Positions 1,936 through 32,000 of a stretch of 32,000 nt of DNA are shown here, in pieces. Position numbers and translations under genes: made by a program. The DNA lies in assembly GCA_047651235.1 (NCBI GenBank), contig CP178758.1:3390001-3422000 (forward strand), read 5' to 3'. Each line of letters starts with the position of its first letter. Position 1 is the stretch's first letter. The notes below the pieces were generated by a model. The model did no database searches and was not told the DNA's origin. It saw only the letters and a program-made list of their open reading frames with translations. Origin of the DNA: Candidatus Electrothrix yaqonensis. Its GTDB lineage: Bacteria > Desulfobacterota > Desulfobulbia > Desulfobulbales > Desulfobulbaceae.

Positions 1936-4119
1936 TCAGTTGACTTTGACCATTGCACCTGTAATGGTCACTCCAGAAGGATCAGCTTTTACATTGCCTG
2001 ATGCATCCAGTTCAGCCGAGGCGGTTCCCTTGACAGTGGCTTTCGCGCCGGACATGGTTGCATTTGCATCCAGCTTGACTTTTCCACCACCGCTGGCTTC
2101 GGCGTTCACATCCCCGGTGAGTTCGATTTTGCCGCCGCCGTTGGCTTCTGCTTTCACATCTCCGGTGAGTTCGACTTTACCGCCGCCGCTGGCTTCAGCG
2201 TTTACATCGCTGGTAAGTGTGACCGTACCGCCGCCGTTGGCTGCGGCCTTCACACCGCCGTCAAGCAGCACACTGGATCCTCCGGCGCTTGTTGTCAACG
2301 CATTGGCATCAAGTACGATCGCAGCTCCGCCGCCTGCACTGAGTGTGATTTTTCCCGGCACCATAGTGATGGAACTGCCGCCGCAGGTCAGAGAAATTTC
2401 AGAAGGGGCCTGGATACTCACTGTACTGGTGGTGTCGAGCTTGTAATTGCCGGTTACATTCACAATCCTGTCTCCGGCCTCCACAGTGAGGCTGGTGTTT
2501 CCTTTCACGGTCACCGACTGCGTCCCGGCCTGTACTGCCAAGGAGTCATTGCCGCTTTTCACTGTTGCGGAACGATCATTTTCTACAGTTGTAGTCATAT
2601 CCTTCTTGGCATACAGTGAAAAGTCCTCCGCCCCTTCCTGATCCTCCATATGCAGCTGATTGCCGCCGCCCGATTTGATCACGCTCTGGGTCTGATTTCT
2701 CCCTTTCACCGGACTTCCTGTCTCCGGGTTCGGCACCGATCCGGAGATGATGGGCCGGTCCGGATCGCCCTCAATAAAGGTGAGCAGCACTTCGGTATTT
2801 TTGTGCAGGGGGAAATGCATGCCGTAATCTGCCCCGGCATAGGGCTGCATCATCCGGCACCAGGCCGATGCCTTGCCGCTGCCCCGGCCGCTGCGGTCAA
2901 GGGGAAGGAGAACCTTATAGCGTCCCTCATCGTCCAGCTCGGCATATTGACCACTGGAGGCCGCGTCCACCTTGGCATTGAACGTGCCGGATATTTTCGG
3001 CTTCACTGCGGTCCGCTCCGGCCGGAACTGGACACCCGCCGGAATGCCGGTAAAGCTGTTGGCATAGAACATCGGCTCGTCCACAGGGGCCGTTGCCGCT
3101 GACAGGCCGGAGATCAGATACCCGGTCTGGTGGCCCTCGTGGCTGACCTCGGAGAGCAGATATTTTTTATTGTACGCCTTGGTATAATGTTCCTGCAGAT
3201 CAAAGGTAAAGCCGGGTGTCATAAAGGGAACAGAGCTGTTGCCGTAATAGACGGACTTCCTGCAGAGAAGTTCTTCCGCCCGTATCCCGGCCAGCCGGTT
3301 ACCCTCTTCTGGAGTCGGAAAATGCTCACCGTAGATATAAGTTTCGCCTCTGCCATCCGGATCAACTTCAGCTTTTCCCTCTATTGCTAGGGAGGGTTTG
3401 CGGTAATTGTAATCCTTAAGAAAGACCTGCTGGGGCAGCAGGTTGTGCCTGCAGAGAAATTCTTTGACCACCTCCTTGGTATGCAGGGAATCCAGACCGG
3501 ACTGGGGATTATAGATCAGATCCTTCCCCTGGGGCAGGTCGGTATGGGAGATTTTGGTGTCCGTGAAAATAGCCTTTTCGCCCTGCTCAGTCTGCTCAAA
3601 AAAGTAGTAGATACCTTCCCGTTCCGCCCATCGGGAAACAAAATTCAGATGGGTCTCACCGTACTGGCAGACGTACTCCAAGGGCTGGTAGTCGTTCTGC
3701 AGCTTGAACTCGAAGTCGATGCCGCTGACCAGACCGCATTCCTTGAGCACGGCCTCCAGAATATCCGGAACGGGCTGATCAAGGAAGACCTGGTTATGGC
3801 CGGTCAGGGAAAGCCACTGCAGCTTGGGCATAAGCACGGCTTTAAAGAAGAGATAACCGTTGAACTCCTGGGTTTCCTCGAACTGCATGAGGATGCCGTG
3901 GAAGCTTACATCCTCCTCACCGTCCCGGTGGATGGTGAAGACAGCGGTGTTCTGGAGCACCTGGAGGGGATCAATATCCTTTGTCTCTGAGATCAGGACG
4001 ATCTCGAACCGGTAGGGGGTGGAGAACGCCTCAAAGCCGGTGAAACTGACCACGGCAAAACTGTCCGGGGCTGCTGCTTTGGAGACAAAAGAGTATTTTC
4101 TTTTAGTCAGAAGAGCCAT
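1936..4119 (-). CDS. vgrG: Type VI secretion spike protein VgrG (TssI)
   Basis: The sequence has the VgrG/gp27-gp5 signature: FEIVLIS, CQYGETHLNFVSRWAEREGIYYFFEQ, WCRMMQPYAGADYGMHFPLHKNTEVLLTFIEGDPDRPIISGSVPN. The C-terminus is a Gly-rich beta-helix. I prefer the ATG at 4119 (MALLTKRKY) because GGAGGG lies about 7 nt upstream; the ORF track extends to 4203. Confidence 0.9.
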   Translation of the reverse strand: MALLTKRKYSFVSKAAAPDSFAVVSFTGFEAFSTPYRFEIVLISETKDIDPLQVLQNTAVFTIHRDGEEDVSFHGILMQFEETQEFNGYLFFKAVLMPKLQWLSLTGHNQVFLDQPVPDILEAVLKECGLVSGIDFEFKLQNDYQPLEYVCQYGETHLNFVSRWAEREGIYYFFEQTEQGEKAIFTDTKISHTDLPQGKDLIYNPQSGLDSLHTKEVVKEFLCRHNLLPQQVFLKDYNYRKPSLAIEGKAEVDPDGRGETYIYGEHFPTPEEGNRLAGIRAEELLCRKSVYYGNSSVPFMTPGFTFDLQEHYTKAYNKKYLLSEVSHEGHQTGYLISGLSAATAPVDEPMFYANSFTGIPAGVQFRPERTAVKPKISGTFNAKVDAASSGQYAELDDEGRYKVLLPLDRSGRGSGKASAWCRMMQPYAGADYGMHFPLHKNTEVLLTFIEGDPDRPIISGSVPNPETGSPVKGRNQTQSVIKSGGGNQLHMEDQEGAEDFSLYAKKDMTTTVENDRSATVKSGNDSLAVQAGTQSVTVKGNTSLTVEAGDRIVNVTGNYKLDTTSTVSIQAPSEISLTCGGSSITMVPGKITLSAGGGAAIVLDANALTTSAGGSSVLLDGGVKAAANGGGTVTLTSDVNAEASGGGKVELTGDVKAEANGGGKIELTGDVNAEASGGGKVKLDANATMSGAKATVKGTASAELDASGNVKADPSGVTITGAMVKVN
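2074..2265 (-). repeat. Four tandem 48-bp units inside the vgrG 3' end, encoding 16-aa beta-helix repeats GGGK(V/I)ELTGDV(K/N)AEA(S/N)
   Basis: Direct reading gives units at 2074-2121, 2122-2169, 2170-2217 and 2218-2265. The middle two are near-identical at the DNA level. Confidence 0.85.
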
Positions 4120-4280
4120 AGCGTTTCCCTCCTTTGTATTTTCAGGCCGGTCGTCTTGCAAATGACATGCAATTAGGAATTCACGAAAATAACTATACCC
4201 CATATTGACAGGGGATTCCAGAGAAATAAATTGGAATAGACTTGTTCCTTTTTAAAAATCGGGTAAACTTCACGAAAAAA

Positions 4281-12452: not shown

Positions 12453-13079
12453 TTATTGTTTTGTCAACCAGTTATTGTTTAAATAGCACTCATGCACATC
12501 CTCAGCAAGTCTTGTGAGGATGAGCTGACTAATCCTGCTGAACTGATCTATTCTTCTTGAATCCATGAGCATTTCCTGATCGCCATGTGCAATATTATTC
12601 CTGAAACGTAACAACTGATTGAGGTCTTTTTCATCTTCATTGGTCAGAAAATTTTCAACACCGATAGAGGCGCAGATTTTTGCAAATACCTTGGGGGTGA
12701 TATTTGACTCTGTGTTTATGCTACCCGGCAACTGTGCAGTGCCGTTCACTGCATTGCGGATTTTACTGACAATTTTTTGCTGTTGTATGAAATTCGTTAC
12801 AGGATTTTCGAGTGAACAGGCTCCTCCAATAGCCAAACAGAGAAATGGTTCAGAAAGATCGGAGACCTTCTCCAATTTTCGATTAATATGCCCGAAAAGT
12901 TGACCGGTTAATTCCCGAACGCCACCTTCTAAAGCTGCATAAATCAGCAGAACGCATGCTCCGCGCAGCAACTTTTTCTGCTCTTTGGTTTTGGCGAGCA
13001 GTACTGCTCTTTTTGCCAGCCCAATATCTGCCTGTCTGCGATCTACAATTTCGGCAAGAGCCTCAGAAAAGTCAGGCAT
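12453..13079 (-). CDS. HEPN-domain protein (predicted RNase; resembles the RiboL-PSP / MAE_28990-type HEPN families)
   Basis: A 208-aa protein with the C-terminal Rx4H motif LLRFRNNIAHGDQ and the N-terminal helix LLIYAALEGGVREL. It overlaps the upstream DUF262 gene by 8 nt and is AT-rich. Confidence 0.7.
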   Translation of the reverse strand: MPDFSEALAEIVDRRQADIGLAKRAVLLAKTKEQKKLLRGACVLLIYAALEGGVRELTGQLFGHINRKLEKVSDLSEPFLCLAIGGACSLENPVTNFIQQQKIVSKIRNAVNGTAQLPGSINTESNITPKVFAKICASIGVENFLTNEDEKDLNQLLRFRNNIAHGDQEMLMDSRRIDQFSRISQLILTRLAEDVHECYLNNNWLTKQ

Positions 13080-14142
13080 TTTTAAAGATTTCTTTTGCCC
13101 TTTTTATTCTTTTTCTGACACGGGCTTGGTAATTTGAAGAAGCCCCTGTCGCAGATAAAAAATCTTTATCCTGAAGCAGTTTCCGGATTTTTTCAGCAAC
13201 TTTTTCAGGATTTTTTTCAAAAGAATCTATTTGATATGCGATTCCCATCATAATACCGTCATATCTGGACGGAGAGAACGAGTAATTCCTACCGTGAAAA
13301 ACATTTTCAATATTTATCTTTTTTACAACTTGCAGGGTTCTAAGGAAGAGATCTTTATTCCCTTGAAAAAGGCTGTGATCAGCCGACGCTTTTCTCATAT
13401 ATTCAGTGAGGTGACTGCCAAGATTTCTTTCTGGCCCAAAATTTTTTTCAGACTCCTCAATCCAAAGCAGCGCATAAAATCTCACGACAAGTTCGTCCAA
13501 GTAGAGTTGAGATTTCTGTCGTTCAGTTGGTCTGACCAAGGCAATCAGATCTTTGTTATTCGACAACTCACGAACTTCATTTGCCAATTCATTTCCGCTT
13601 CCCCGAAAAATACAGTTTCGCACCTCCTGCTCCGTCAGTGGCGAGCCTCCAGTATTAAGCCGATTAAATAGCTCATAACGCATATCATATCGGGAGTCCC
13701 ATTTTATAACCTCAACCCGTACTGCACTACGTTTGATATTAAGCTGAAGTTTTAAAGGCAGGTCATCAATTTTTTTCCCTGCCAAATTAGTTACAAGATC
13801 GCCTTTGCACATTGCCCAGCCGTTTTCCTTGGAAGACTCTTCCCCTATCAATTTGCCGAAAAACGATAGCACCGTGCTGACTCGTTGCAACCCATCGACG
13901 ATTTCCCATTTACCTTCATCGTCTTCAGCGATAAATATTGAAGGTATGGGAATACCACATAATATAGATTCGATGAAACGAGTTCTCTGGTAAATACCCC
14001 ATCTGAAATATCGTTGAAATTCCGGATCAATAATCAATTCACCTGCATCATACATATTTATCAGCTCACCAAAACTCATATCCAGTCGGTCCGCCGAGAG
14101 CGTATTTCTAGCCTTGATCAATTCCTGTTCTAAGTCGATCAT
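13072..14142 (-). CDS. DUF262 (ParB-like / GmrSD N-terminal-type) domain protein lacking a DUF1524 nuclease domain
   Basis: A 356-aa protein with the motifs IIDPEFQRYFRW and WEIVDGLQRVSTV (DGQQR-type). No HNH/His-Me motif is seen in the C-terminal half. AT-rich. Confidence 0.85.
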   Translation of the reverse strand: MIDLEQELIKARNTLSADRLDMSFGELINMYDAGELIIDPEFQRYFRWGIYQRTRFIESILCGIPIPSIFIAEDDEGKWEIVDGLQRVSTVLSFFGKLIGEESSKENGWAMCKGDLVTNLAGKKIDDLPLKLQLNIKRSAVRVEVIKWDSRYDMRYELFNRLNTGGSPLTEQEVRNCIFRGSGNELANEVRELSNNKDLIALVRPTERQKSQLYLDELVVRFYALLWIEESEKNFGPERNLGSHLTEYMRKASADHSLFQGNKDLFLRTLQVVKKINIENVFHGRNYSFSPSRYDGIMMGIAYQIDSFEKNPEKVAEKIRKLLQDKDFLSATGASSNYQARVRKRIKRAKEIFKNA

Positions 14143-27591: not shown

Positions 27592-28101
27592 GAGGTGGAT
27601 GAGAAGGTCTGTCTGTTCGCAGTAACATCCGTAAGTCTAGCAGGTTAAAGTCCTGTCCGGGAATTGTCCGTACGCCCCGGTAGTATGAGGAAGCGGCGTT
27701 GTAGAGATGCAAGGTCGTGAGTTTCCCCCCAACAATAAAGCAGGCCGTAACGCAAGTGAACCTATGAGTAGCCTCGTAAACTAATTGGAGGAGCCGACCC
27801 TGTGGACGGAAGGGGAAGGCCGTTGGATGGGTGCCGGAATAACGGAAGTGGCACACGTTGACTCCCGGGGTAGCAGGGATGGCATGTTTTAGAAGATTTG
27901 CAGACCAGTGCTGGAGACCCGTCTCCGGGGGTGGTGAGAGCACCAACCGATGCGTATAAGGAAACGAAATCGCAGAGGCCCGAAGCGGGAGTCGGAGGGG
28001 TTCATAGTACCGTTCGAGACCTTGGGACAACATAACCTAGGTCAAGGGAAGGAACCCTGCTTTGTTCATGCAACCAAAGAGTGGAGGATCAGGGGATTGC
28101 C

Positions 28102-29415
28102 ATGTCGCTAGTCACCCCGGAAAAGATCAGGACGCTACAGAGGAAGCTGTATATCAAGGCCAAGCAGGAACCGGCCTATCGCTTCTACGCACTTTACGAC
28201 AAGATTTTTCGGGCTGATGTTCTCAATCACGCCTGGAGGCTTGTTCGTGCCAATGGAGGAAGCCCTGGAGTAGACGGGGTGAGCTTCAAGGCCATAGAGG
28301 GCGGGGTAGGGGTAGGAACGTTTCTTCTGGAGCTGGCCCATGATCTGAAGGAAAGAAAATACCAGGCCCAGCCTGTTCGCCGTGTCATGATACCCAAAGG
28401 TAACGGAGATTTTCGTCCGTTGGGTATTCCGACGATACGTGATCGGGTCGTGCAAATGGCGGTAAAACTGGTTATTGAGCCGATTTTTGAGGCGGATTTC
28501 TGTGCGCATTCGTATGGATTTCGTCCTGGAAGGTCGGCCCACCATGCCGTGGATGATATTGCCAATACGCTCTGGGCAGGCTGCACAAAAGTCATAGACG
28601 CTGATCTGTCGAAGTATTTTGACACTATTCCACATAATAAACTGCTGATCGTAGTGGCTGAACGCATTGTAGACGGGAGCATATTGCACCTTATCAAACA
28701 GTGGCTCAAGGCACCTGTAATCGGTGAAGACGATTGTGGAAAGAAGAAAACTGTAGGAGGCGGGAAAGGCAATCGGAAAGGTACACCGCAAGGTGGTGTG
28801 ATCTCACCGTTGTTGGCTAACTGCTACCTGCATATTCTGGATCGTGTATGGCAACGACGGAACCTCAAGTTCAGGCTGGGGGCGCATATTGTCCGCTATG
28901 CGGATGATTTTGTAGTGATGTGTCGAGGCGATGTAGAGAAACCAATGGAAGTGGTGCATGATGTGTTGAACCGACTTGATCTTACACTCAATGAGGACAA
29001 GACGCACGTCGTGAACGCCGCTGAAACAGGTTTCGATTTTCTTGGTTTTACAATTCAGATGAGTCGGGGTGCTCGAAGCGGTAAACCGTATCCCAATGTA
29101 CGACCGTCGGATAAGTCGCTGAAGAGAGTGAAAGCGAGGCTGACGGAACTGACAGACAGGAAGCTGACCTGCATTCCTCTGAGTGATGTGGTGGGCAATG
29201 TAAATCGCAGCCTTCGTGGCTGGGTGAACTATTTCCACTTTCGTAACTCAAGCATGGCGATGAGCAAGGCGAGGCAACATGCGGAAGACCGACTGAGAAT
29301 ACACCTGATGAAGCGCCATAAGGTCAGGGACAGAAAAGCGGCTTTATGTCGTTTTCCCCGTCGTGATCTCTATGAGTGCTATGGGCTGTACAAGGTTTCT
29401 GGAAAAGCGGGCTGA
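28102..29415 (+). CDS. Group II intron reverse transcriptase/maturase (En-minus)
   Basis: RT motifs GSPGVDGVSF, RVMIPKGNGDFRPLGIPTIRDRVVQ, TPQGGVISPLLAN and YADDFVVMC, followed by the X/maturase region LRGWVNYF. There is no C-terminal HNH motif. The start is the ATG at 28102 or the GTG at 28081. Confidence 0.9.
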   Translation: MSLVTPEKIRTLQRKLYIKAKQEPAYRFYALYDKIFRADVLNHAWRLVRANGGSPGVDGVSFKAIEGGVGVGTFLLELAHDLKERKYQAQPVRRVMIPKGNGDFRPLGIPTIRDRVVQMAVKLVIEPIFEADFCAHSYGFRPGRSAHHAVDDIANTLWAGCTKVIDADLSKYFDTIPHNKLLIVVAERIVDGSILHLIKQWLKAPVIGEDDCGKKKTVGGGKGNRKGTPQGGVISPLLANCYLHILDRVWQRRNLKFRLGAHIVRYADDFVVMCRGDVEKPMEVVHDVLNRLDLTLNEDKTHVVNAAETGFDFLGFTIQMSRGARSGKPYPNVRPSDKSLKRVKARLTELTDRKLTCIPLSDVVGNVNRSLRGWVNYFHFRNSSMAMSKARQHAEDRLRIHLMKRHKVRDRKAALCRFPRRDLYECYGLYKVSGKAG

Positions 29416-29450
29416 AGAACGGCGCATGCCTCGGTATGAAGAACATCGGA

Positions 29451-29483
29451 AAGCCGTGTGCGGGAAAACCGCACGCACGGTTT
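29451..29483 (+). ncRNA. Group II intron domain V (catalytic hairpin)
   Basis: AAGCCGUGUGCGG-GAAA-ACCGCACGCACGGUUU: an AGC triad, a 2-nt bulge on the 3' strand and a GAAA tetraloop. Confidence 0.8.
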
Positions 29484-29694
29484 GATGAGGGAGCATTGAG
29501 GAAGCAAGCACTTGGTACACGTAGTAGCCGCGTGCGGCGAGGCGTCTGTAAAAGGGCCAGGATTACTGCTGAATCAGTGCTCTACTCTACCGACTGTTTC
29601 GATGTGAAAAATATGATCATTTTATTCTGCTTTTCAAGTCGTTACTGTTTGTTTTCTATCAAGAAGGTGTCGTTTTTGAGGATAAGGTGTAACC

Positions 29695-30822
29695 ATGAAG
29701 GGTAATAATTTTTTTGAAGAGCAGAAAGAGCAGTCCTTGGTTAAGTCTACAATTGTGGCAAAATACTTTGACGCTTGGTCTGCTGTCATAATCAGTACTC
29801 AGAAACGTTACCCTCAGCATCCCCAGAAAATAGCTTATATTGATCTTTTCGCAGGCCCAGGTCGTTATGATGATGGCAGTCAGTCAACCCCGTTAAAAAT
29901 ATTAACCAATGCCATAGACAAGCCTGATTTATGTGAACGACTTGTAACCATATTTAATGATAAGGACGAGGATAAGTCGGGAAAATTAAGGGAAACAATT
30001 GCAGAAATTCATAGGATTGAAGAACTGAAATACAAGCCGCAGATTTACAACCAAGAAGTTGGCGAAAAGATCGTTCGCATGTTTGAAAGCATGAATTTGG
30101 TTCCGACATTATTCTTTGTTGATCCTTGGGGATATAAAGGTTTATCTCTTAGGCTTGTTAACTCGGTATTAAAAGACTGGGGGTGCGATTGTATCTTTTT
30201 CTTTAACTACAACAGGATCAATATGGGACTGAGTAATCCCTTTGTCAAGGAACACATGGATGCCCTGTTCGGACAAGATCGGGCTGATGAACTGAGACCA
30301 AAACTTGCTCAAACCTCTCCAAAAGAGAGGGAGTTAATAATAGTTGAAGAACTTTGTCAAGCGATTAAATCCTATGGCAGTCGCTACACTTTGCCTTTTA
30401 GATTTAAAGATTCAAAGGGAAAACGAACAAGCCATCATCTTATTTTTGTCAGCAAGCATTTTCGCGGTTATGACATCATGAAGGATATCATGTCTCGTGA
30501 AAGTACAAGCGACACAGAAGGTGTGCCTTCATTTGAATACAATCCCGCTGACTTTTTGCCAAAGCAGACTCTTTTGTTTCAACTTTCCCGTCCAATTGAT
30601 GATCTAAAAAATGATTTGCTGGACAACTTTGCAGGTCAAAGACTCACAATGGAAAAAATTTACGAAGAACACAACGTAGATACTCCTTATATTAAAAAGA
30701 ATTATAAGGATACGTTACGTACACTTTATGATGAGAATCTCATTGATGCAATTTCGTTAAAAGGGAAGCCGCCACGTAAAGATACATTCGGTGATAAAAT
30801 TATAGTTACTTTTCCAAGGTAA
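29695..30822 (+). CDS. TcmP-like protein (three-Cys-motif partner protein family) with methyltransferase-like motifs
   Basis: A 375-aa ORF in AT-rich DNA, 5 nt upstream of a DUF5131 gene; that pairing defines the TcmP family. The N-terminus FFEEQKEQSLVKSTIVAKYFDAWSAVI fits my recollection of the family. It contains YIDLFAGPGRY (SAM-MTase motif I-like) and FFVDPWGYKG (motif IV-like). Confidence 0.6.
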   Translation: MKGNNFFEEQKEQSLVKSTIVAKYFDAWSAVIISTQKRYPQHPQKIAYIDLFAGPGRYDDGSQSTPLKILTNAIDKPDLCERLVTIFNDKDEDKSGKLRETIAEIHRIEELKYKPQIYNQEVGEKIVRMFESMNLVPTLFFVDPWGYKGLSLRLVNSVLKDWGCDCIFFFNYNRINMGLSNPFVKEHMDALFGQDRADELRPKLAQTSPKERELIIVEELCQAIKSYGSRYTLPFRFKDSKGKRTSHHLIFVSKHFRGYDIMKDIMSRESTSDTEGVPSFEYNPADFLPKQTLLFQLSRPIDDLKNDLLDNFAGQRLTMEKIYEEHNVDTPYIKKNYKDTLRTLYDENLIDAISLKGKPPRKDTFGDKIIVTFPR

Positions 30823-30827
30823 AGAAA

Positions 30828-31604
30828 ATGGCCACAAGTAAGATAGAATGGACGGAGGCAACTTGGAACCCTGTTACTGGCTGCTCAAAAATCAGTGAAG
30901 GTTGCGTTAACTGCTATGCCGAACGGTTGGCGAAACGTCTCAAGGCAATGGGGCAAAAAAACTATGCGAATGGTTTTAATGTTACTCTCCATCCACATGC
31001 TTTAACTATTCCTTTGAAATGGAAAAAATCACGATTAGTTTTTGTAAACTCAATGAGTGATCTTTTTCATCATGAAGTTCCTCTAGAATTTATTCAGCAG
31101 ATCTTTCATATAATGAATCAAGCCAGCTGGCATCGTTTTCAAGTGCTGACAAAAAGGGCCGAGAGGCTTGCTGAGTTAGCCCCTTTTCTTAAATGGTCAG
31201 AAAATATATGGACGGGAGTTACTGTTGAGAAAGATACTTACTTAGACCGTCTTAAATACCTGAAAGAGGTTCCGGCTGCTATAAAATTCTTATCGCTTGA
31301 GCCTCTTTTGGGGCCAATAACTACTATAGATTTAACTGATATTCATTGGGTTATAGTCGGCGGTGAGAGCGGGCCAAATGCACGCCCAATGGAAAAAAAA
31401 TGGGTAATTGATATTCAGAAACAATGTATTGAGTTGATGATACCTTTTTTCTTTAAGCAATGGGGTGGTGTTAATAAAAAGAAAGCTGGAAGAATATTGA
31501 ATGGAAAGATATTTAATGAAATGCCAATCTTGAATAAGAGACAATTAAGTTTAATAAATATAAATAATAGCAAGATGGATATAAATAAAAAATATCCTGA
31601 CTGA
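30828..31604 (+). CDS. DUF5131 family protein (phage Gp37/Gp68 family, three-Cys motif)
   Basis: A 258-aa protein with IEWTEATWNPVTGCSKISEGCVNCYAE (C-x6-C-x2-C), VIVGGESGPNARPM and FFFKQWGG. These are the hallmarks of Pfam PF07505 as I recall them. Confidence 0.85.
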   Translation: MATSKIEWTEATWNPVTGCSKISEGCVNCYAERLAKRLKAMGQKNYANGFNVTLHPHALTIPLKWKKSRLVFVNSMSDLFHHEVPLEFIQQIFHIMNQASWHRFQVLTKRAERLAELAPFLKWSENIWTGVTVEKDTYLDRLKYLKEVPAAIKFLSLEPLLGPITTIDLTDIHWVIVGGESGPNARPMEKKWVIDIQKQCIELMIPFFFKQWGGVNKKKAGRILNGKIFNEMPILNKRQLSLININNSKMDINKKYPD

Positions 31605-31834
31605 ACTGAATCCGCACAAACCCGTGCTATTCGGTTCGTATGCATACGGAGAGATCGGTGAGTAATATGACTGGCTGGCCTTGAAGTAACGCCGCAATCT
31701 TCCCAATTCAAGTTTTTCTTGGGAATTATCAGAGTTATTTCCCTCTGTCTTCTTTGTTTGCTTTTTCGGTCAAAACATTATAGATTTATCAGGTAAAGGC
31801 GGTTATTCATCAATTCTTGTCAGCGGGAGTGGCA

Positions 31835-32000
31835 ATGGACCTTGTTTCACCGGTGCTTATCTGGTTTCTTTTGGGAATCGGCTTCTTTGTCATGGAACTG
31901 GCTGCTCCCGGATTTATCCTTTTTTTCTTTGGTATCGGGGCTTGGTGTACAGCTGCGGTGCTGGCCCTGATCGATTTTTCTCTCCCTGTCCAGATGATCA
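31835..32000 (+). CDS. NfeD-like membrane protein, N-terminal fragment (runs off the right edge)
   Basis: Hand-translated: MDLVSPVLIWFLLGIGFFVMELAAPGFILFFFGIGAWCTAAVLALIDFSLPVQMI. GGGAG lies 5 nt upstream of the ATG. This is the typical N-terminus of short NfeD-family proteins. Confidence 0.55.
   Translation, partial: MDLVSPVLIWFLLGIGFFVMELAAPGFILFFFGIGAWCTAAVLALIDFSLPVQMI

What the first reader, a model, noticed from the sequence alone, without database searches (positions are those of the whole stretch)
29591..31720. AT-rich two-gene islet: TcmP-like partner plus DUF5131 (Gp37/Gp68, three-Cys) protein, a candidate uncharacterised nucleic-acid modification or defence module
- Two genes separated by 5 nt form a compact operon in a patch of about 2.1 kb. 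The patch looks far more AT-rich than the flanking djlA-like and nfeD-like genes, which suggests horizontal acquisition.
- The left edge of the patch coincides with the 3' end of a group II intron.
- Gene 2 carries the DUF5131 hallmarks: an N-terminal C-x6-C-x2-C cluster reminiscent of radical-SAM/Fe-S cluster ligation, GGESG, and FFFKQWGG.
- Gene 1 looks like the family annotated only as its conserved partner (TcmP). It also contains DLFAGPG and DPWGY, which resemble SAM-methyltransferase motifs I and IV.
- To my knowledge no biochemical or biological function is established for this pair.
- Working hypothesis (inference): an Fe-S enzyme plus a methyltransferase-fold partner acts on DNA or RNA, either as a modification system or as an anti-phage/anti-MGE system.
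Basis: partly seen in the sequence, partly recalled or inferred. Interest (0 to 1): 0.85.

Follow-up and report, generated by a model that had tools for sequence, protein, structure and literature searches.

The report
TcmP plus radical-SAM DUF5131 gene pair
This is a horizontally acquired two-gene cassette, a methyltransferase-fold protein with a DNA-binding tail plus an unusual radical-SAM enzyme, that databases already list as an untested anti-phage defence candidate, so this copy is a typical member of a widespread family whose chemistry is still unknown.

Summary
There are two co-directional ORFs, 29695-30822 and 30828-31604, 5 nt apart. Their GC is 0.37-0.38 (GC3 0.33-0.36), against GC3 0.64-0.67 in the neighbouring genes. 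A group II intron ends at 29590.

- **ORF1** is TcmP (TIGR04474). The AlphaFold model has a class-I SAM-methyltransferase fold, closest to the rRNA m6A methylase RlmJ, plus a C-terminal winged helix. The SAM-binding motifs and a DPxGY motif are conserved deep in the family.
- **ORF2** is DUF5131, the CX6CX2C subgroup of the radical-SAM superfamily that clusters with spore photoproduct lyase.
- **The pairing is obligate.** All 82 assessable loci, from many phyla and one archaeon, have a radical-SAM partner next to TcmP, in three different gene arrangements. There is no conserved third gene.
- **Context.** Neighbours are enriched in restriction-modification and defence genes. In prophages the pair lies near integrases and repressors.
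- **Catalogue status.** PADLOC already lists the pair as PDC-M30/M41, which are untested "guilt-by-embedding" candidates.
- **In Electrothrix** the pair sits after djlA in three species and was exchanged more recently than the flanking genes diverged. The intron is a later insertion found only in this strain.

The most likely function is a two-enzyme, nucleic-acid-directed conflict module. The chemistry is unknown. This is a new member of a catalogued but uncharacterised kind.

The parts
29591..29694 (+). AT-rich leader between the 3' end of the group II intron and the tcmP start codon. An AAGGTG Shine-Dalgarno-like element lies about 6 nt before the ATG.
   Evidence: Sequence read; Rfam intron domain V/VI match ends at 29590. 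The leader is not conserved with the other Electrothrix spacers. No promoter call on the + strand in this stretch.
29695..30822 (+). tcmP: a 375-aa three-Cys-motif partner protein (PADLOC PDC-M30A type). It has a class-I SAM-methyltransferase fold plus a C-terminal winged helix.
   Evidence: TIGR04474 E 3e-62; PDC-M30A E 7.8e-27; AF2 pLDDT 79, pTM 0.81; best PDB match RlmJ 6qe5, E 4.4e-6.
29842..29862 (+). TcmP motif I, D50-L-F-A-G54-P-G56, the predicted SAM-binding loop after beta1.
   Evidence: D50, G54 and G56 are conserved in at least 97% of 137 representatives that are 38-57% identical to the query. The strand-loop position comes from the model.
30121..30135 (+). TcmP motif IV-like D143-P-W-G-Y147 after beta4. 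It is a variant of the (D/N)PP(Y/F) motif of amino-methyltransferases.
   Evidence: D143, P144 and G146 are conserved in at least 97% of deep representatives. The short PDC-M41A partners keep D-P-Y at the same place.
30535..30765 (+). TcmP C-terminal winged helix-turn-helix domain (PF22560 GMT-wHTH), residues 281-357.
   Evidence: Pfam E 2.5e-21; pLDDT 88-97 for residues 301-375.
30823..30827 (+). 5-nt intergenic spacer (AGAAA). An AAGG Shine-Dalgarno-like element lies in the last codons of tcmP, just before its stop codon, so translational coupling is likely.
   Evidence: Sequence read. In most co-directional loci the tblastn matches of the two genes lie only 11-33 nt apart.
30828..31604 (+). 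DUF5131 / Gp37-Gp68 family protein, 258 aa (PADLOC PDC-M41B/M30B). It belongs to the radical-SAM superfamily subgroup with a CX6CX2C motif. The last roughly 20 residues are a non-conserved tail.
   Evidence: PF07505 E 8.4e-99; PDC-M41B E 4.5e-121; RadicalSAM.org Megacluster-5-2 (PMC9477430); AF2 pLDDT 86. Homologues are about 245 aa.
30882..30914 (+). C19-x6-C26-x2-C29 motif, the predicted ligands of the SAM-binding [4Fe-4S] cluster.
   Evidence: Invariant in 86 close homologues, and in phage and distant members.
31359..31373 (+). G178-G-E-S-G182 motif.
   Evidence: G178, G179, E180, S181 and G182 are invariant in alignment A4.
31425..31427 (+). Cys200, a fourth conserved cysteine.
   Evidence: Invariant in A4 and present in all seven true DUF5131 proteins of A7, including the phage ones. 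A catalytic role is inference only.
31446..31469 (+). F207-F-F-K-Q-W-G-G214 motif on the last barrel strand.
   Evidence: Invariant in A4.
31605..31720 (+). 3' untranslated tail of the AT-rich patch, before GC rises towards nfeD (ATG near 31836).
   Evidence: The downstream sequence is unrelated in the three Electrothrix species.

Best explanation
The region is a self-contained, horizontally mobile two-enzyme module of the PADLOC PDC-M30 type. It most likely acts on nucleic acid in conflicts with phages and other mobile elements.

**Shown here**
- TcmP has a class-I SAM-methyltransferase fold with intact SAM-binding motifs.
- TcmP carries an amino-methyltransferase-like DPxGY motif and a C-terminal winged helix.
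- DUF5131 is a radical-SAM superfamily member with a CX6CX2C motif, from the cluster that also holds spore photoproduct lyase.
- The two genes are always adjacent, whatever the gene order, and need no third gene.

**Inferred**
- TcmP binds the target, probably DNA, through the winged helix.
- TcmP flips a base into its DPxGY pocket and may methylate an exocyclic amine.
- DUF5131 uses a [4Fe-4S] cluster and SAM to make a 5'-deoxyadenosyl radical.
- That radical drives chemistry on the same nucleotide or a neighbouring one.
- The resulting covalent change marks or disables nucleic acid.

The product and the self/non-self logic are unknown.
For: **Domains and folds**
- Family matches.
- The TcmP model has pTM 0.81. 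Its best PDB matches are RlmJ (E 4e-6, probability 1.0) followed by other class-I methyltransferases.
- Conserved in at least 90-97% of 137 representatives that are 38-57% identical to the query: D50, G54, G56, F87-N88-D89, D143, P144 and G146.
- The same motifs survive in the short partners, which are only 24% identical.
- DUF5131 has three invariant Cys residues.
- The literature places DUF5131 in the radical-SAM superfamily, in the same megacluster as spore photoproduct lyase.
- The DUF5131 model is a beta/alpha barrel. Its best-TM match is spore photoproduct lyase 4fhg (TMq 0.50, probability 0.98). Lipoyl synthase and viperin also appear.

**Obligate pairing**
- A DUF5131 gene lies next to tcmP in 81 of the 82 assessable loci. 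The arrangements are co-directional, convergent and reversed order, or with an inserted ORF.
- In the remaining locus, L012, the partner matches canonical Radical_SAM, PF04055.
- There is no conserved third gene.

**Conflict context**
- Both proteins match PADLOC PDC-M30/M41 models.
- The nearest neighbours include ResIII, type I methylases and specificity subunits, CapP, AriA, AbiLi and PbeA.
- About twice as many PADLOC family matches per residue occur next to the pair as 7-10 kb away.
- In Gordonia phage Easley the pair lies between the integrase and the immunity repressor.
- In 36 paired IMG/VR loci the neighbours include integrases, recombinases, repressor-type HTH/S24 proteins and restriction-modification genes.

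**Mobility**
- GC3 is 0.33-0.36 against 0.64-0.67 in flanking genes.
- Among identical residues, 0.75-0.84 of codons are identical in the pair, against 0.51-0.64 in flanking genes.
- The family occurs in many bacterial phyla and one archaeon.
Against: - No experiment on any member was found in the searchable literature.
- The PADLOC PDC systems are not validated.
- The Foldseek matches of DUF5131 to radical-SAM structures all have E above 0.001. De novo TIM barrels score equally well.
- PF04055 does not match ORF2, and TIGR04471 matches far below its cutoff.
- The best structural relative of TcmP is an rRNA methylase, not a DNA methylase.
- In this genome the neighbours are housekeeping genes.
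- The defence-context comparison is crude. It counts family matches rather than running a genome-wide enrichment test.
- TcmP lacks the hypervariable target-recognition region typical of restriction-modification methylases.
Confidence: 0.45

Rival explanations
1. A reversible-damage toxin-antitoxin or abortive-infection module, working like DarTG. TcmP would place a toxic methyl or other adduct on DNA or RNA. The DUF5131 enzyme, a relative of the repair enzyme spore photoproduct lyase, would remove it by radical chemistry. Infection would tip the balance towards damage.
For: - DUF5131 shares a megacluster with spore photoproduct lyase, a direct-reversal DNA repair enzyme, and that lyase is its best-TM structural match.
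- TcmP was never found without a radical-SAM neighbour.
- DUF5131 often occurs alone in phages. It is found in 181 phage records, against 6 for TcmP.
- In IMG/VR there are at least 576 DUF5131 loci, against 13 for M30-type TcmP. Phage-borne solo copies could act as anti-defence.
Against: - The solo phage proteins are a structurally distinct long form with insertions. Only 1 of 23 proteins longer than 300 aa is paired, whereas 32 of 41 short-form proteins like the window's are paired. The asymmetry therefore largely reflects subfamilies.
- There is no evidence that TcmP is toxic.
- The convergent arrangement in cyanobacteria and phage Easley is unusual for a toxin-antitoxin operon.
Confidence: 0.15
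2. A restriction-modification-like system. TcmP would methylate host DNA as a self mark. DUF5131 would be the effector that damages unmarked DNA by radical chemistry.
For: - The methyltransferase-fold gene comes first and appears translationally coupled to its partner.
- Restriction-modification genes are frequent neighbours.
- TcmP carries a winged helix domain.
Against: - Neither protein has a nuclease domain.
- TcmP is unusually uniform, 55-79% identical across phyla, with an alignable C-terminus rather than a hypervariable recognition domain.
- Under this model a solo effector should be lethal, yet DUF5131 is commonly solo in phages, although as a different subfamily.
- The same DUF5131 clade pairs with partners that lack the winged helix.
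Confidence: 0.1
3. An RNA modification pair acting on rRNA or tRNA. TcmP would act as an RlmJ-like m6A-type methylase and DUF5131 as a radical-SAM RNA-modifying enzyme. The effect could be altered translation or resistance, with no direct role in immunity.
For: - The closest solved structure to TcmP is the 23S rRNA m6A2030 methylase RlmJ.
- Established knowledge: many radical-SAM enzymes modify RNA (RlmN/Cfr, MiaB). MiaB appears among the weak fold matches.
Against: - Distribution is patchy, GC is atypical and exchange between species was recent.
- The pair sits in prophage lysogeny modules and next to restriction-modification genes.
- TM-scores to RlmJ are only 0.37-0.48, with 10-12% identity.
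- No RNA-methylase Pfam or NCBIfam model matches.
Confidence: 0.1
4. A viperin-like small-molecule producer. DUF5131 would convert a free nucleotide into an antiviral analogue and TcmP would methylate it.
For: - Viperin is among the weak structural matches.
- Established knowledge: prokaryotic viperins are radical-SAM defence enzymes.
Against: - The winged helix on TcmP and the clustering with spore photoproduct lyase point to polymer substrates.
- The viperin matches have E of 0.04 or higher and TMq about 0.35.
Confidence: 0.07

Closest known systems
PADLOC phage-defence candidates PDC-M30 (A+B) and PDC-M41 (A+B)
   Same: - Both window proteins match the models. ORF1 matches PDC-M30A at E 7.8e-27.
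- ORF2 matches PDC-M41B at E 4.5e-121 and PDC-M30B at E 3.1e-118.
- The two-gene architecture is the same.
   Different: - Nothing differs structurally: the window is a PDC-M30-type instance, with the long partner carrying the wHTH.
- PDC-M41 uses a short partner of about 282 aa without the wHTH, only 24% identical.
- PDC systems are guilt-by-embedding predictions without experimental validation.
TIGR04474 TcmP / PF07505 three-Cys-motif (Gp37/Gp68, DUF5131) pair
   Same: - Scores are far above the curated cutoffs.
- The partner protein is adjacent, as the family name implies.
- NCBI already names the window's protein TcmP in Candidatus Electrothrix sp. YB6.
   Different: None. The family is defined by sequence and neighbourhood only; no function is attached to it.
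Spore photoproduct lyase (radical-SAM DNA repair enzyme; RadicalSAM.org Megacluster-5-3)
   Same: - It shares a radical-SAM megacluster with DUF5131, which is subgroup 5-2.
- It is the best-TM structural match to the model (4fhg, TMq 0.50, probability 0.98).
   Different: - Spore photoproduct lyase has CX3CX2C, whereas DUF5131 has CX6CX2C.
- There is no detectable sequence similarity.
- The Foldseek E-value is only 0.03.
- DUF5131 is about 100 residues shorter and needs a methyltransferase-fold partner.
RlmJ (E. coli 23S rRNA m6A2030 methyltransferase)
   Same: - It is the best structural match of the TcmP model (E 4.4e-6, probability 1.0).
- Both have a class-I fold with a helical insertion and an aspartate-proline catalytic-loop motif. 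The RlmJ motif is recalled from the literature, not tested here.
   Different: - Identity is 10-12% and TM-score 0.37-0.48.
- No profile-level sequence match was found.
- RlmJ has no wHTH, is a housekeeping gene and works alone.
Two-component radical-SAM plus methyltransferase-fold systems, such as C10P/C10Q in CC-1065 biosynthesis (recalled from the literature, not tested)
   Same: A radical-SAM enzyme and a methyltransferase-fold protein act as an obligate pair on a single substrate.
   Different: Those are HemN-like enzymes in natural-product clusters. No sequence or context link to this pair was seen here.

Membership tests
[quoted passage not shown] | Whole-protein HMM score above the curated cutoff | tested here: met
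   210.9 bits against a cutoff of 53, E 3e-62, covering profile positions 1-262 of 263.
[quoted passage not shown] | Encoded next to a three-Cys-motif (PF07505) protein | tested here: met
   The window has a 5-nt gap. All 82 assessable loci have a radical-SAM neighbour: 81 DUF5131 and 1 PF04055.
PF07505 DUF5131 (phage Gp37/Gp68) | HMM score above the gathering threshold over the full profile | tested here: met
   330.4 bits against 28.9, covering profile positions 2-243 of 243.
PF07505 DUF5131 (phage Gp37/Gp68) | N-terminal CX6CX2C motif | tested here: met
   C19, C26 and C29 are invariant in A4 and A7. The motif is as described for Megacluster-5-2.
Radical SAM superfamily | Three-cysteine motif able to bind the SAM-binding [4Fe-4S] cluster | tested here: met
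   Variant spacing CX6CX2C. RadicalSAM.org and SFLD list it as a radical-SAM subgroup. This is a sequence-level test only.
Radical SAM superfamily | Partial or full (beta/alpha) TIM-barrel core resembling solved radical-SAM enzymes | tested here: inconclusive
   The AF2 model (pLDDT 86) has alternating beta/alpha elements. Foldseek lists lipoyl synthase, spore photoproduct lyase, viperin and MiaB, but every E-value is at least 0.008 and designed TIM barrels rank first.
Radical SAM superfamily | Match to the canonical Radical_SAM model (PF04055) or an NCBIfam radical-SAM equivalog | tested here: not met
   No PF04055 hit at E of 0.01 or better. TIGR04471 scores 77.6 bits against a cutoff of 355.
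Radical SAM superfamily | Fe-S cluster binding and reductive cleavage of SAM | not testable with these tools
   Requires anaerobic purification, UV-vis/EPR and 5'-deoxyadenosine assays.
Class-I SAM-dependent (amino-)methyltransferases | Seven-stranded Rossmann-like fold | tested here: met
   AF2 pTM 0.81. The strand order is consistent with beta1-beta7, including the beta6/beta7 hairpin. The top 40 or more PDB and viral matches are almost all class-I methyltransferases.
Class-I SAM-dependent (amino-)methyltransferases | Motif I glycine-rich loop and an acidic residue at the end of beta2 | tested here: met
   D50-x-F-x-G54-x-G56 and N88-D89 are conserved in at least 90-97% of deep representatives.
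Class-I SAM-dependent (amino-)methyltransferases | Catalytic motif IV (D/N/S)PP(Y/F/W) | tested here: inconclusive
   The motif is D143-P-W-G-Y147 (DPxGY), one residue longer than the canon. It is deeply conserved. The loop has low pLDDT, 50-55.
Class-I SAM-dependent (amino-)methyltransferases | Match to a curated methyltransferase sequence model | tested here: not met
   No methyltransferase family matches in Pfam or NCBIfam at E of 0.01 or better. No PDB sequence relative was found.
Class-I SAM-dependent (amino-)methyltransferases | SAM binding and methyl transfer | not testable with these tools
   Biochemistry is needed.
PADLOC PDC-M30 | Adjacent genes matching the A and B models | tested here: met
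   A at E 7.8e-27 and B at E 3.1e-118, adjacent in the window.
PADLOC PDC-M30 | Protection against phage | not testable with these tools
   No validation was found in the literature.
Restriction-modification systems | A nuclease component | tested here: not met
   Neither protein matches a nuclease family.
Restriction-modification systems | A variable target-recognition domain in the methylase | tested here: not met
   TcmP aligns end to end at 55-79% identity across phyla. The C-terminus is a recognisable Pfam wHTH.
Spore photoproduct lyase | CX3CX2C motif and sequence membership | tested here: not met
   The motif is CX6CX2C, and no sequence match to spore photoproduct lyase chains exists in the PDB. 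Only a weak fold resemblance was seen.

The most novel reading that the evidence does not exclude
The pair is an immune or modification system built on new radical chemistry on nucleic acid. A methyltransferase-fold protein would flip out, and perhaps methylate, a base. A radical-SAM enzyme from the spore-photoproduct-lyase clade would then transform it. The result would be a DNA or RNA modification, or a lesion, of a type not yet described. Long-form solo DUF5131 proteins in phages would act as the counter-measure or as the phage's own version.
Probability: 0.3. Interest if true: 0.85.

Novelty: new member of a known kind. Interest (0 to 1): 0.45.

Why it matters
DUF5131 is a whole subgroup of the radical-SAM superfamily with no known reaction. 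TcmP has about 2,800 clusters at 50% identity. The pair is spread over most bacterial phyla, some archaea and prophages.

Solving its chemistry would assign function to thousands of genes. It could also reveal a new nucleic-acid modification or a new logic of anti-phage defence.

The analysis sharpens the experiment in four ways:
- The minimal unit is two genes.
- The SAM motifs of the partner are under strong constraint.
- The short DUF5131 form is the paired one.
- Phage long forms are solo.

This particular copy in a cable bacterium adds little beyond showing that the cassette is exchanged between Electrothrix species at a fixed spot downstream of djlA.

Tried and rejected
- **Group II intron as part of the module: rejected.** E. 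gigas and E. aarhusensis carry the pair after djlA without the intron.
- **Flanking repeats or att sites around the islet: none found.** No convincing direct or inverted repeats. No tRNA or integrase lies next to it.
- **A conserved third gene: none.** The largest neighbour cluster covers 10 of 82 loci and consists of generic histidine kinases. Others reflect Microcoleus synteny.
- **Sequence relatives with solved structures: none**, for either protein or either profile.
- **Literature: no functional study found.** Searches covered DUF5131, TcmP, PF07505, TIGR04474, PF22560, Gp37/Gp68, GMT-wHTH and COG4422. The origin of the Pfam name "GMT" could not be traced.
- **Apparent fusion P0143 (PF07505+PF22560): not evidence of fusion.** It looks like a read-through or miscalled gene joining the TcmP C-terminus to DUF5131. 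P0128 is an internal duplication.
- **Heterodimer prediction.** It could not be run.
- **Plasmid carriage: rare.** 15 of 72,556 records, all distant relatives.


Full report
**1. Observation**

The window holds two co-directional ORFs, 29695..30822 (375 aa) and 30828..31604 (258 aa). They are 5 nt apart. An AAGG element lies in the last codons of the first gene, just before its stop codon, which suggests translational coupling.

GC is 0.34-0.41 from 29550 to 31800 and 0.48-0.62 upstream. GC3 is 0.36 and 0.33 for the pair, against 0.64-0.67 for Lon, FtsY and DjlA.

Rfam places group II intron domains at 27647-27880 and 29449-29590. The intron ORF, 28081-29415, carries RVT_1 and GIIM. The left edge of the patch therefore does coincide with the intron's 3' end.

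**2. Identity of the two proteins**

ORF1 matches TIGR04474 TcmP at 210.9 bits against a cutoff of 53. It also carries a C-terminal PF22560 GMT-wHTH domain at residues 281-357.

ORF2 matches PF07505 DUF5131 at 330.4 bits and PHROG 2045, which has no known function. It matches TIGR04471 only weakly, below the cutoff.

PADLOC models match both proteins:
- ORF1 matches PDC-M30A.
- ORF2 matches PDC-M41B and PDC-M30B.

According to PMC10855318, PDC systems are non-validated candidates found by "guilt-by-embedding". RadicalSAM.org lists DUF5131 as Megacluster-5-2 of the radical-SAM superfamily. It has a CX6CX2C motif and sits in the same megacluster as spore photoproduct lyase (5-3) and MJ0683-like proteins (5-1) (PMC9477430).

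The window comes from Candidatus Electrothrix sp. YB6, whose protein is 100% identical and already named TcmP.

**3. Structure**

*TcmP.* The AlphaFold model built from 102 sequences has pLDDT 79 and pTM 0.81. It shows a long N-terminal helix, a seven-stranded Rossmann-type core with a helical insertion, and a confident C-terminal winged helix. Foldseek against the PDB returns E. coli RlmJ first (E 4.4e-6, probability 1.0, TM 0.37-0.48), followed almost only by class-I SAM methyltransferases. The viral library gives the same picture.

In an alignment with 137 representatives that are 38-57% identical to the query, the positions conserved in at least 90-97% are:
- K17 and W28
- D50, G54 and G56 (motif I)
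- P66
- F87-N88-D89 (the acidic end of beta2)
- P137 and F141
- D143, P144 and G146 (the DPxGY loop)
- F170

The SAM-binding and catalytic-loop positions are thus the most constrained part of the protein. That argues for an active SAM-using enzyme rather than a degenerate scaffold. This last step is inference.

*DUF5131.* The model has pLDDT 86 and a beta/alpha barrel, with the Cys motif on the loop after the first strand. Foldseek matches are weak, all at E of 0.008 or higher. They include lipoyl synthase, spore photoproduct lyase (best TM, 0.50) and viperin, alongside designed TIM barrels.

C19, C26 and C29 are invariant. A fourth cysteine, C200, is conserved in all true DUF5131 proteins aligned, including phage ones.

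Neither protein, nor either profile, has a sequence relative in the PDB.

**4. Is the pairing real?**

A genome scan returned 80 loci from many phyla: Thermodesulfobacteriota, Chloroflexota, Cyanobacteria, Acidobacteriota, Planctomycetota, Bacillota, Nitrospirota and others. One archaeon, Methanimicrococcus, is among them.

Together with the Electrothrix loci, tblastn finds a DUF5131 gene next to tcmP in every locus where the contig allows it, except L012. The arrangements vary:
- co-directional, with the tblastn matches of the two genes 11-33 nt apart, in most loci;
- convergent, with about 89 nt between the matches, in cyanobacteria;
- DUF5131 upstream in L016, L026 and L072;
- an inserted 408-aa ORF between the two genes in L029.

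In L012 the downstream gene matches canonical Radical_SAM (PF04055, E 2.8e-10) and DUF5131 only weakly. TcmP therefore has a radical-SAM neighbour in 82 of 82 assessable loci.

Clustering of 693 neighbouring ORFs shows no conserved third gene.

A DUF5131 protein that is 66% identical to the window's pairs with a 282-aa partner in other genomes. That partner has no winged helix and is only 24% identical to TcmP, but it keeps D-x-F-x-G-x-G and D-P-Y. This is PDC-M41.

**5. Context**

Among 120 nearest-neighbour ORFs from 70 non-redundant loci, PADLOC and Pfam find the following:
- ResIII in 6
- type I methylases in up to 5
- HsdS (a neighbour cluster present in 5 loci)
- mad2 in 7
- CapP, AriA, AbiLi, PbeA and a type III restriction enzyme

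As an internal control, 83 ORFs lying 7-9.8 kb away were scanned. They hit 141 PADLOC families, against 516 for the nearest neighbours. That is about 5.4 against 10.3 family matches per 1,000 residues. The comparison is crude and supports embedding only qualitatively.

In phage records, DUF5131 occurs in 181 and TcmP in 6, all of the latter Gordonia phages. In Gordonia phage Easley the pair lies between the tyrosine integrase and the immunity repressor. This is the lysogeny region, where prophage-encoded defence genes usually sit.

In IMG/VR, at least 576 contigs encode DUF5131. Of the 80 closest to the window's protein, 36 have an adjacent TcmP-type gene.

| DUF5131 length | Paired with a TcmP-type gene |
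|---|---|
| 265 aa or less (the window's form) | 32 of 41 |
| 266-300 aa | 3 of 17 |
| More than 300 aa (with insertions) | 1 of 23 |

Neighbours of the 36 paired viral loci include HTH_3 (5), tyrosine integrases (4), serine recombinases (3), S24 and M78 peptidases, and restriction-modification components.

In the window itself the neighbours are housekeeping genes: Lon, FtsY and DjlA on the left, NfeD and Band_7 on the right.

**6. History in Electrothrix**

E. gigas and E. aarhusensis carry the pair, at 87-91% amino-acid identity, directly after djlA with the same upstream genes. The downstream sequence differs in all three species, and neither sister species has the intron. The intron is therefore a later, strain-specific insertion into the djlA-tcmP spacer.

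Among identical residues, the fraction encoded by identical codons is 0.75-0.84 for the pair. For Lon, FtsY and DjlA it is 0.51-0.64, even though amino-acid identity is similar to Lon's.

Together with the unameliorated GC3, this shows that the cassette was exchanged between these species after they diverged, at a fixed site. No repeats, integrase or tRNA mark its borders.

**7. Mechanism**

The best-supported reading is a two-enzyme module acting on nucleic acid.

*Shown:*
- the folds and motifs of both proteins;
- obligate adjacency in any gene order;
- sufficiency of two genes;
- mobility;
- conflict-type context.

*Inferred:*
- TcmP provides target binding through the winged helix, base flipping into the DPxGY pocket, and perhaps methyl transfer.
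- DUF5131 provides 5'-deoxyadenosyl-radical chemistry on the presented nucleotide.

This follows from its kinship with the DNA-repair enzyme spore photoproduct lyase.

*Rivals considered:*
- a DarTG-like damage-and-reversal pair;
- a restriction-modification-like self-marking system with a radical effector;
- an RNA-modification pair, suggested by the RlmJ match;
- a viperin-like nucleotide-analogue pathway.

The solo-versus-paired asymmetry that would favour the toxin-antitoxin reading is largely explained by a distinct long-form phage subfamily. The lack of a nuclease and of a variable recognition domain argues against a classical restriction-modification logic. The patchy, mobile distribution argues against housekeeping RNA modification. 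None of the rivals is excluded.

**8. Comparison and verdict**

By all sequence and neighbourhood criteria, this is a member of the TcmP/DUF5131 pair, PADLOC PDC-M30 type. Membership of the radical-SAM superfamily rests on three things:
- the Cys motif;
- curated classification in the literature;
- a weak fold resemblance.

The canonical PF04055 model does not match. TcmP qualifies as a class-I methyltransferase by fold and SAM motifs, not by any curated sequence model, and its motif IV is a variant.

No experimental work on any member was found.

However, the candidate status is already catalogued, and the intron link is coincidental. The family is a good experimental target, but this instance is ordinary for the family.

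Noticed in passing
window 27600-29590: A complete group II intron lies in the djlA-tcmP spacer: RF02005 at 27647-27880, an intron ORF with RVT_1+GIIM at 28081-29415, and RF00029 at 29449-29590. It is absent from the same spacer in E. gigas (L001) and E. aarhusensis (L003), so it is a recent strain-specific insertion just downstream of djlA.
   Followed up: partly
window 29695-31604 compared with L001 10001-11874 and L003 8492-10368: Synonymous divergence of the pair between Electrothrix species is much lower than in flanking genes. The identical-codon fraction is 0.75-0.84 against 0.51-0.64, while GC3 stays near 0.35. This points to recent exchange between species at a fixed hotspot whose downstream flank differs in every species.
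   Followed up: yes
window 13072-14142 (-): A 356-aa ORF with a GmrSD_N (DUF262) domain, typical of type IV restriction enzymes, lies about 15 kb upstream of the pair, next to glmS.
   Followed up: no
window 1936-4203 (-): A VgrG-like protein (Phage_GPD, Gp5_trimer_C, Phage_base_V, DUF2345), which suggests a type VI secretion spike gene at the start of the window.
   Followed up: no
L012 11120-11887: In Desulfatirhabdium butyrativorans the gene after tcmP is not DUF5131. It matches canonical Radical_SAM (PF04055, E 2.8e-10) and DUF5131 only weakly. The partner can therefore be replaced by another radical-SAM type.
   Followed up: partly
L018, L021, L023, L028, L030, L031, L044, L052, L053, L066 (the spacer after the tcmP match): In many cyanobacteria the two genes are convergent, with a recurrent distance of about 89 nt between the two tblastn matches. 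Other convergent loci show 35-116 nt. The spacer was not examined for a shared terminator or RNA.
   Followed up: no
L029 11243-12541: A 408-aa ORF is readable on both strands between tcmP and DUF5131 in a Caldilineaceae genome. It is probably an insertion sequence that splits the pair.
   Followed up: no
L019 10001-11116: The tcmP copy in a Nitrospira MAG has an in-frame stop codon. This could be a pseudogene or a sequencing error.
   Followed up: no
L086 3489-4505 (Mycobacterium phage Phayonce gp62) and L087 3483-4565 (Rhodobacter phage RcapNL gp36): Solo phage DUF5131 proteins are 338-360 aa, with insertions of 60-100 residues, mainly before the C-terminal GKK-AGR motif. They lie in early or replication regions downstream of DNA methylase genes. 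The function of the insertions is unknown.
   Followed up: partly
window 31542-31604: The last roughly 20 residues of the window's DUF5131 (258 aa, against about 245 aa in homologues) form a lysine- and asparagine-rich, non-conserved tail with low pLDDT. It is probably a recent extension into AT-rich sequence.
   Followed up: partly
L001 1-3086: In E. gigas, 7-10 kb upstream of the pair, there are AAA_23, DndE-like/FtsK and PDDEXK_2 genes. These may form a defence-type cluster. The YB6 window has different genes at the equivalent distance upstream.
   Followed up: no
PMC12445080 (S. meliloti SMa2243): A TcmP gene lies beside the validated Hna defence helicase gene (SMa2245) and is co-upregulated with it in a nolR+ background.
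   Followed up: no
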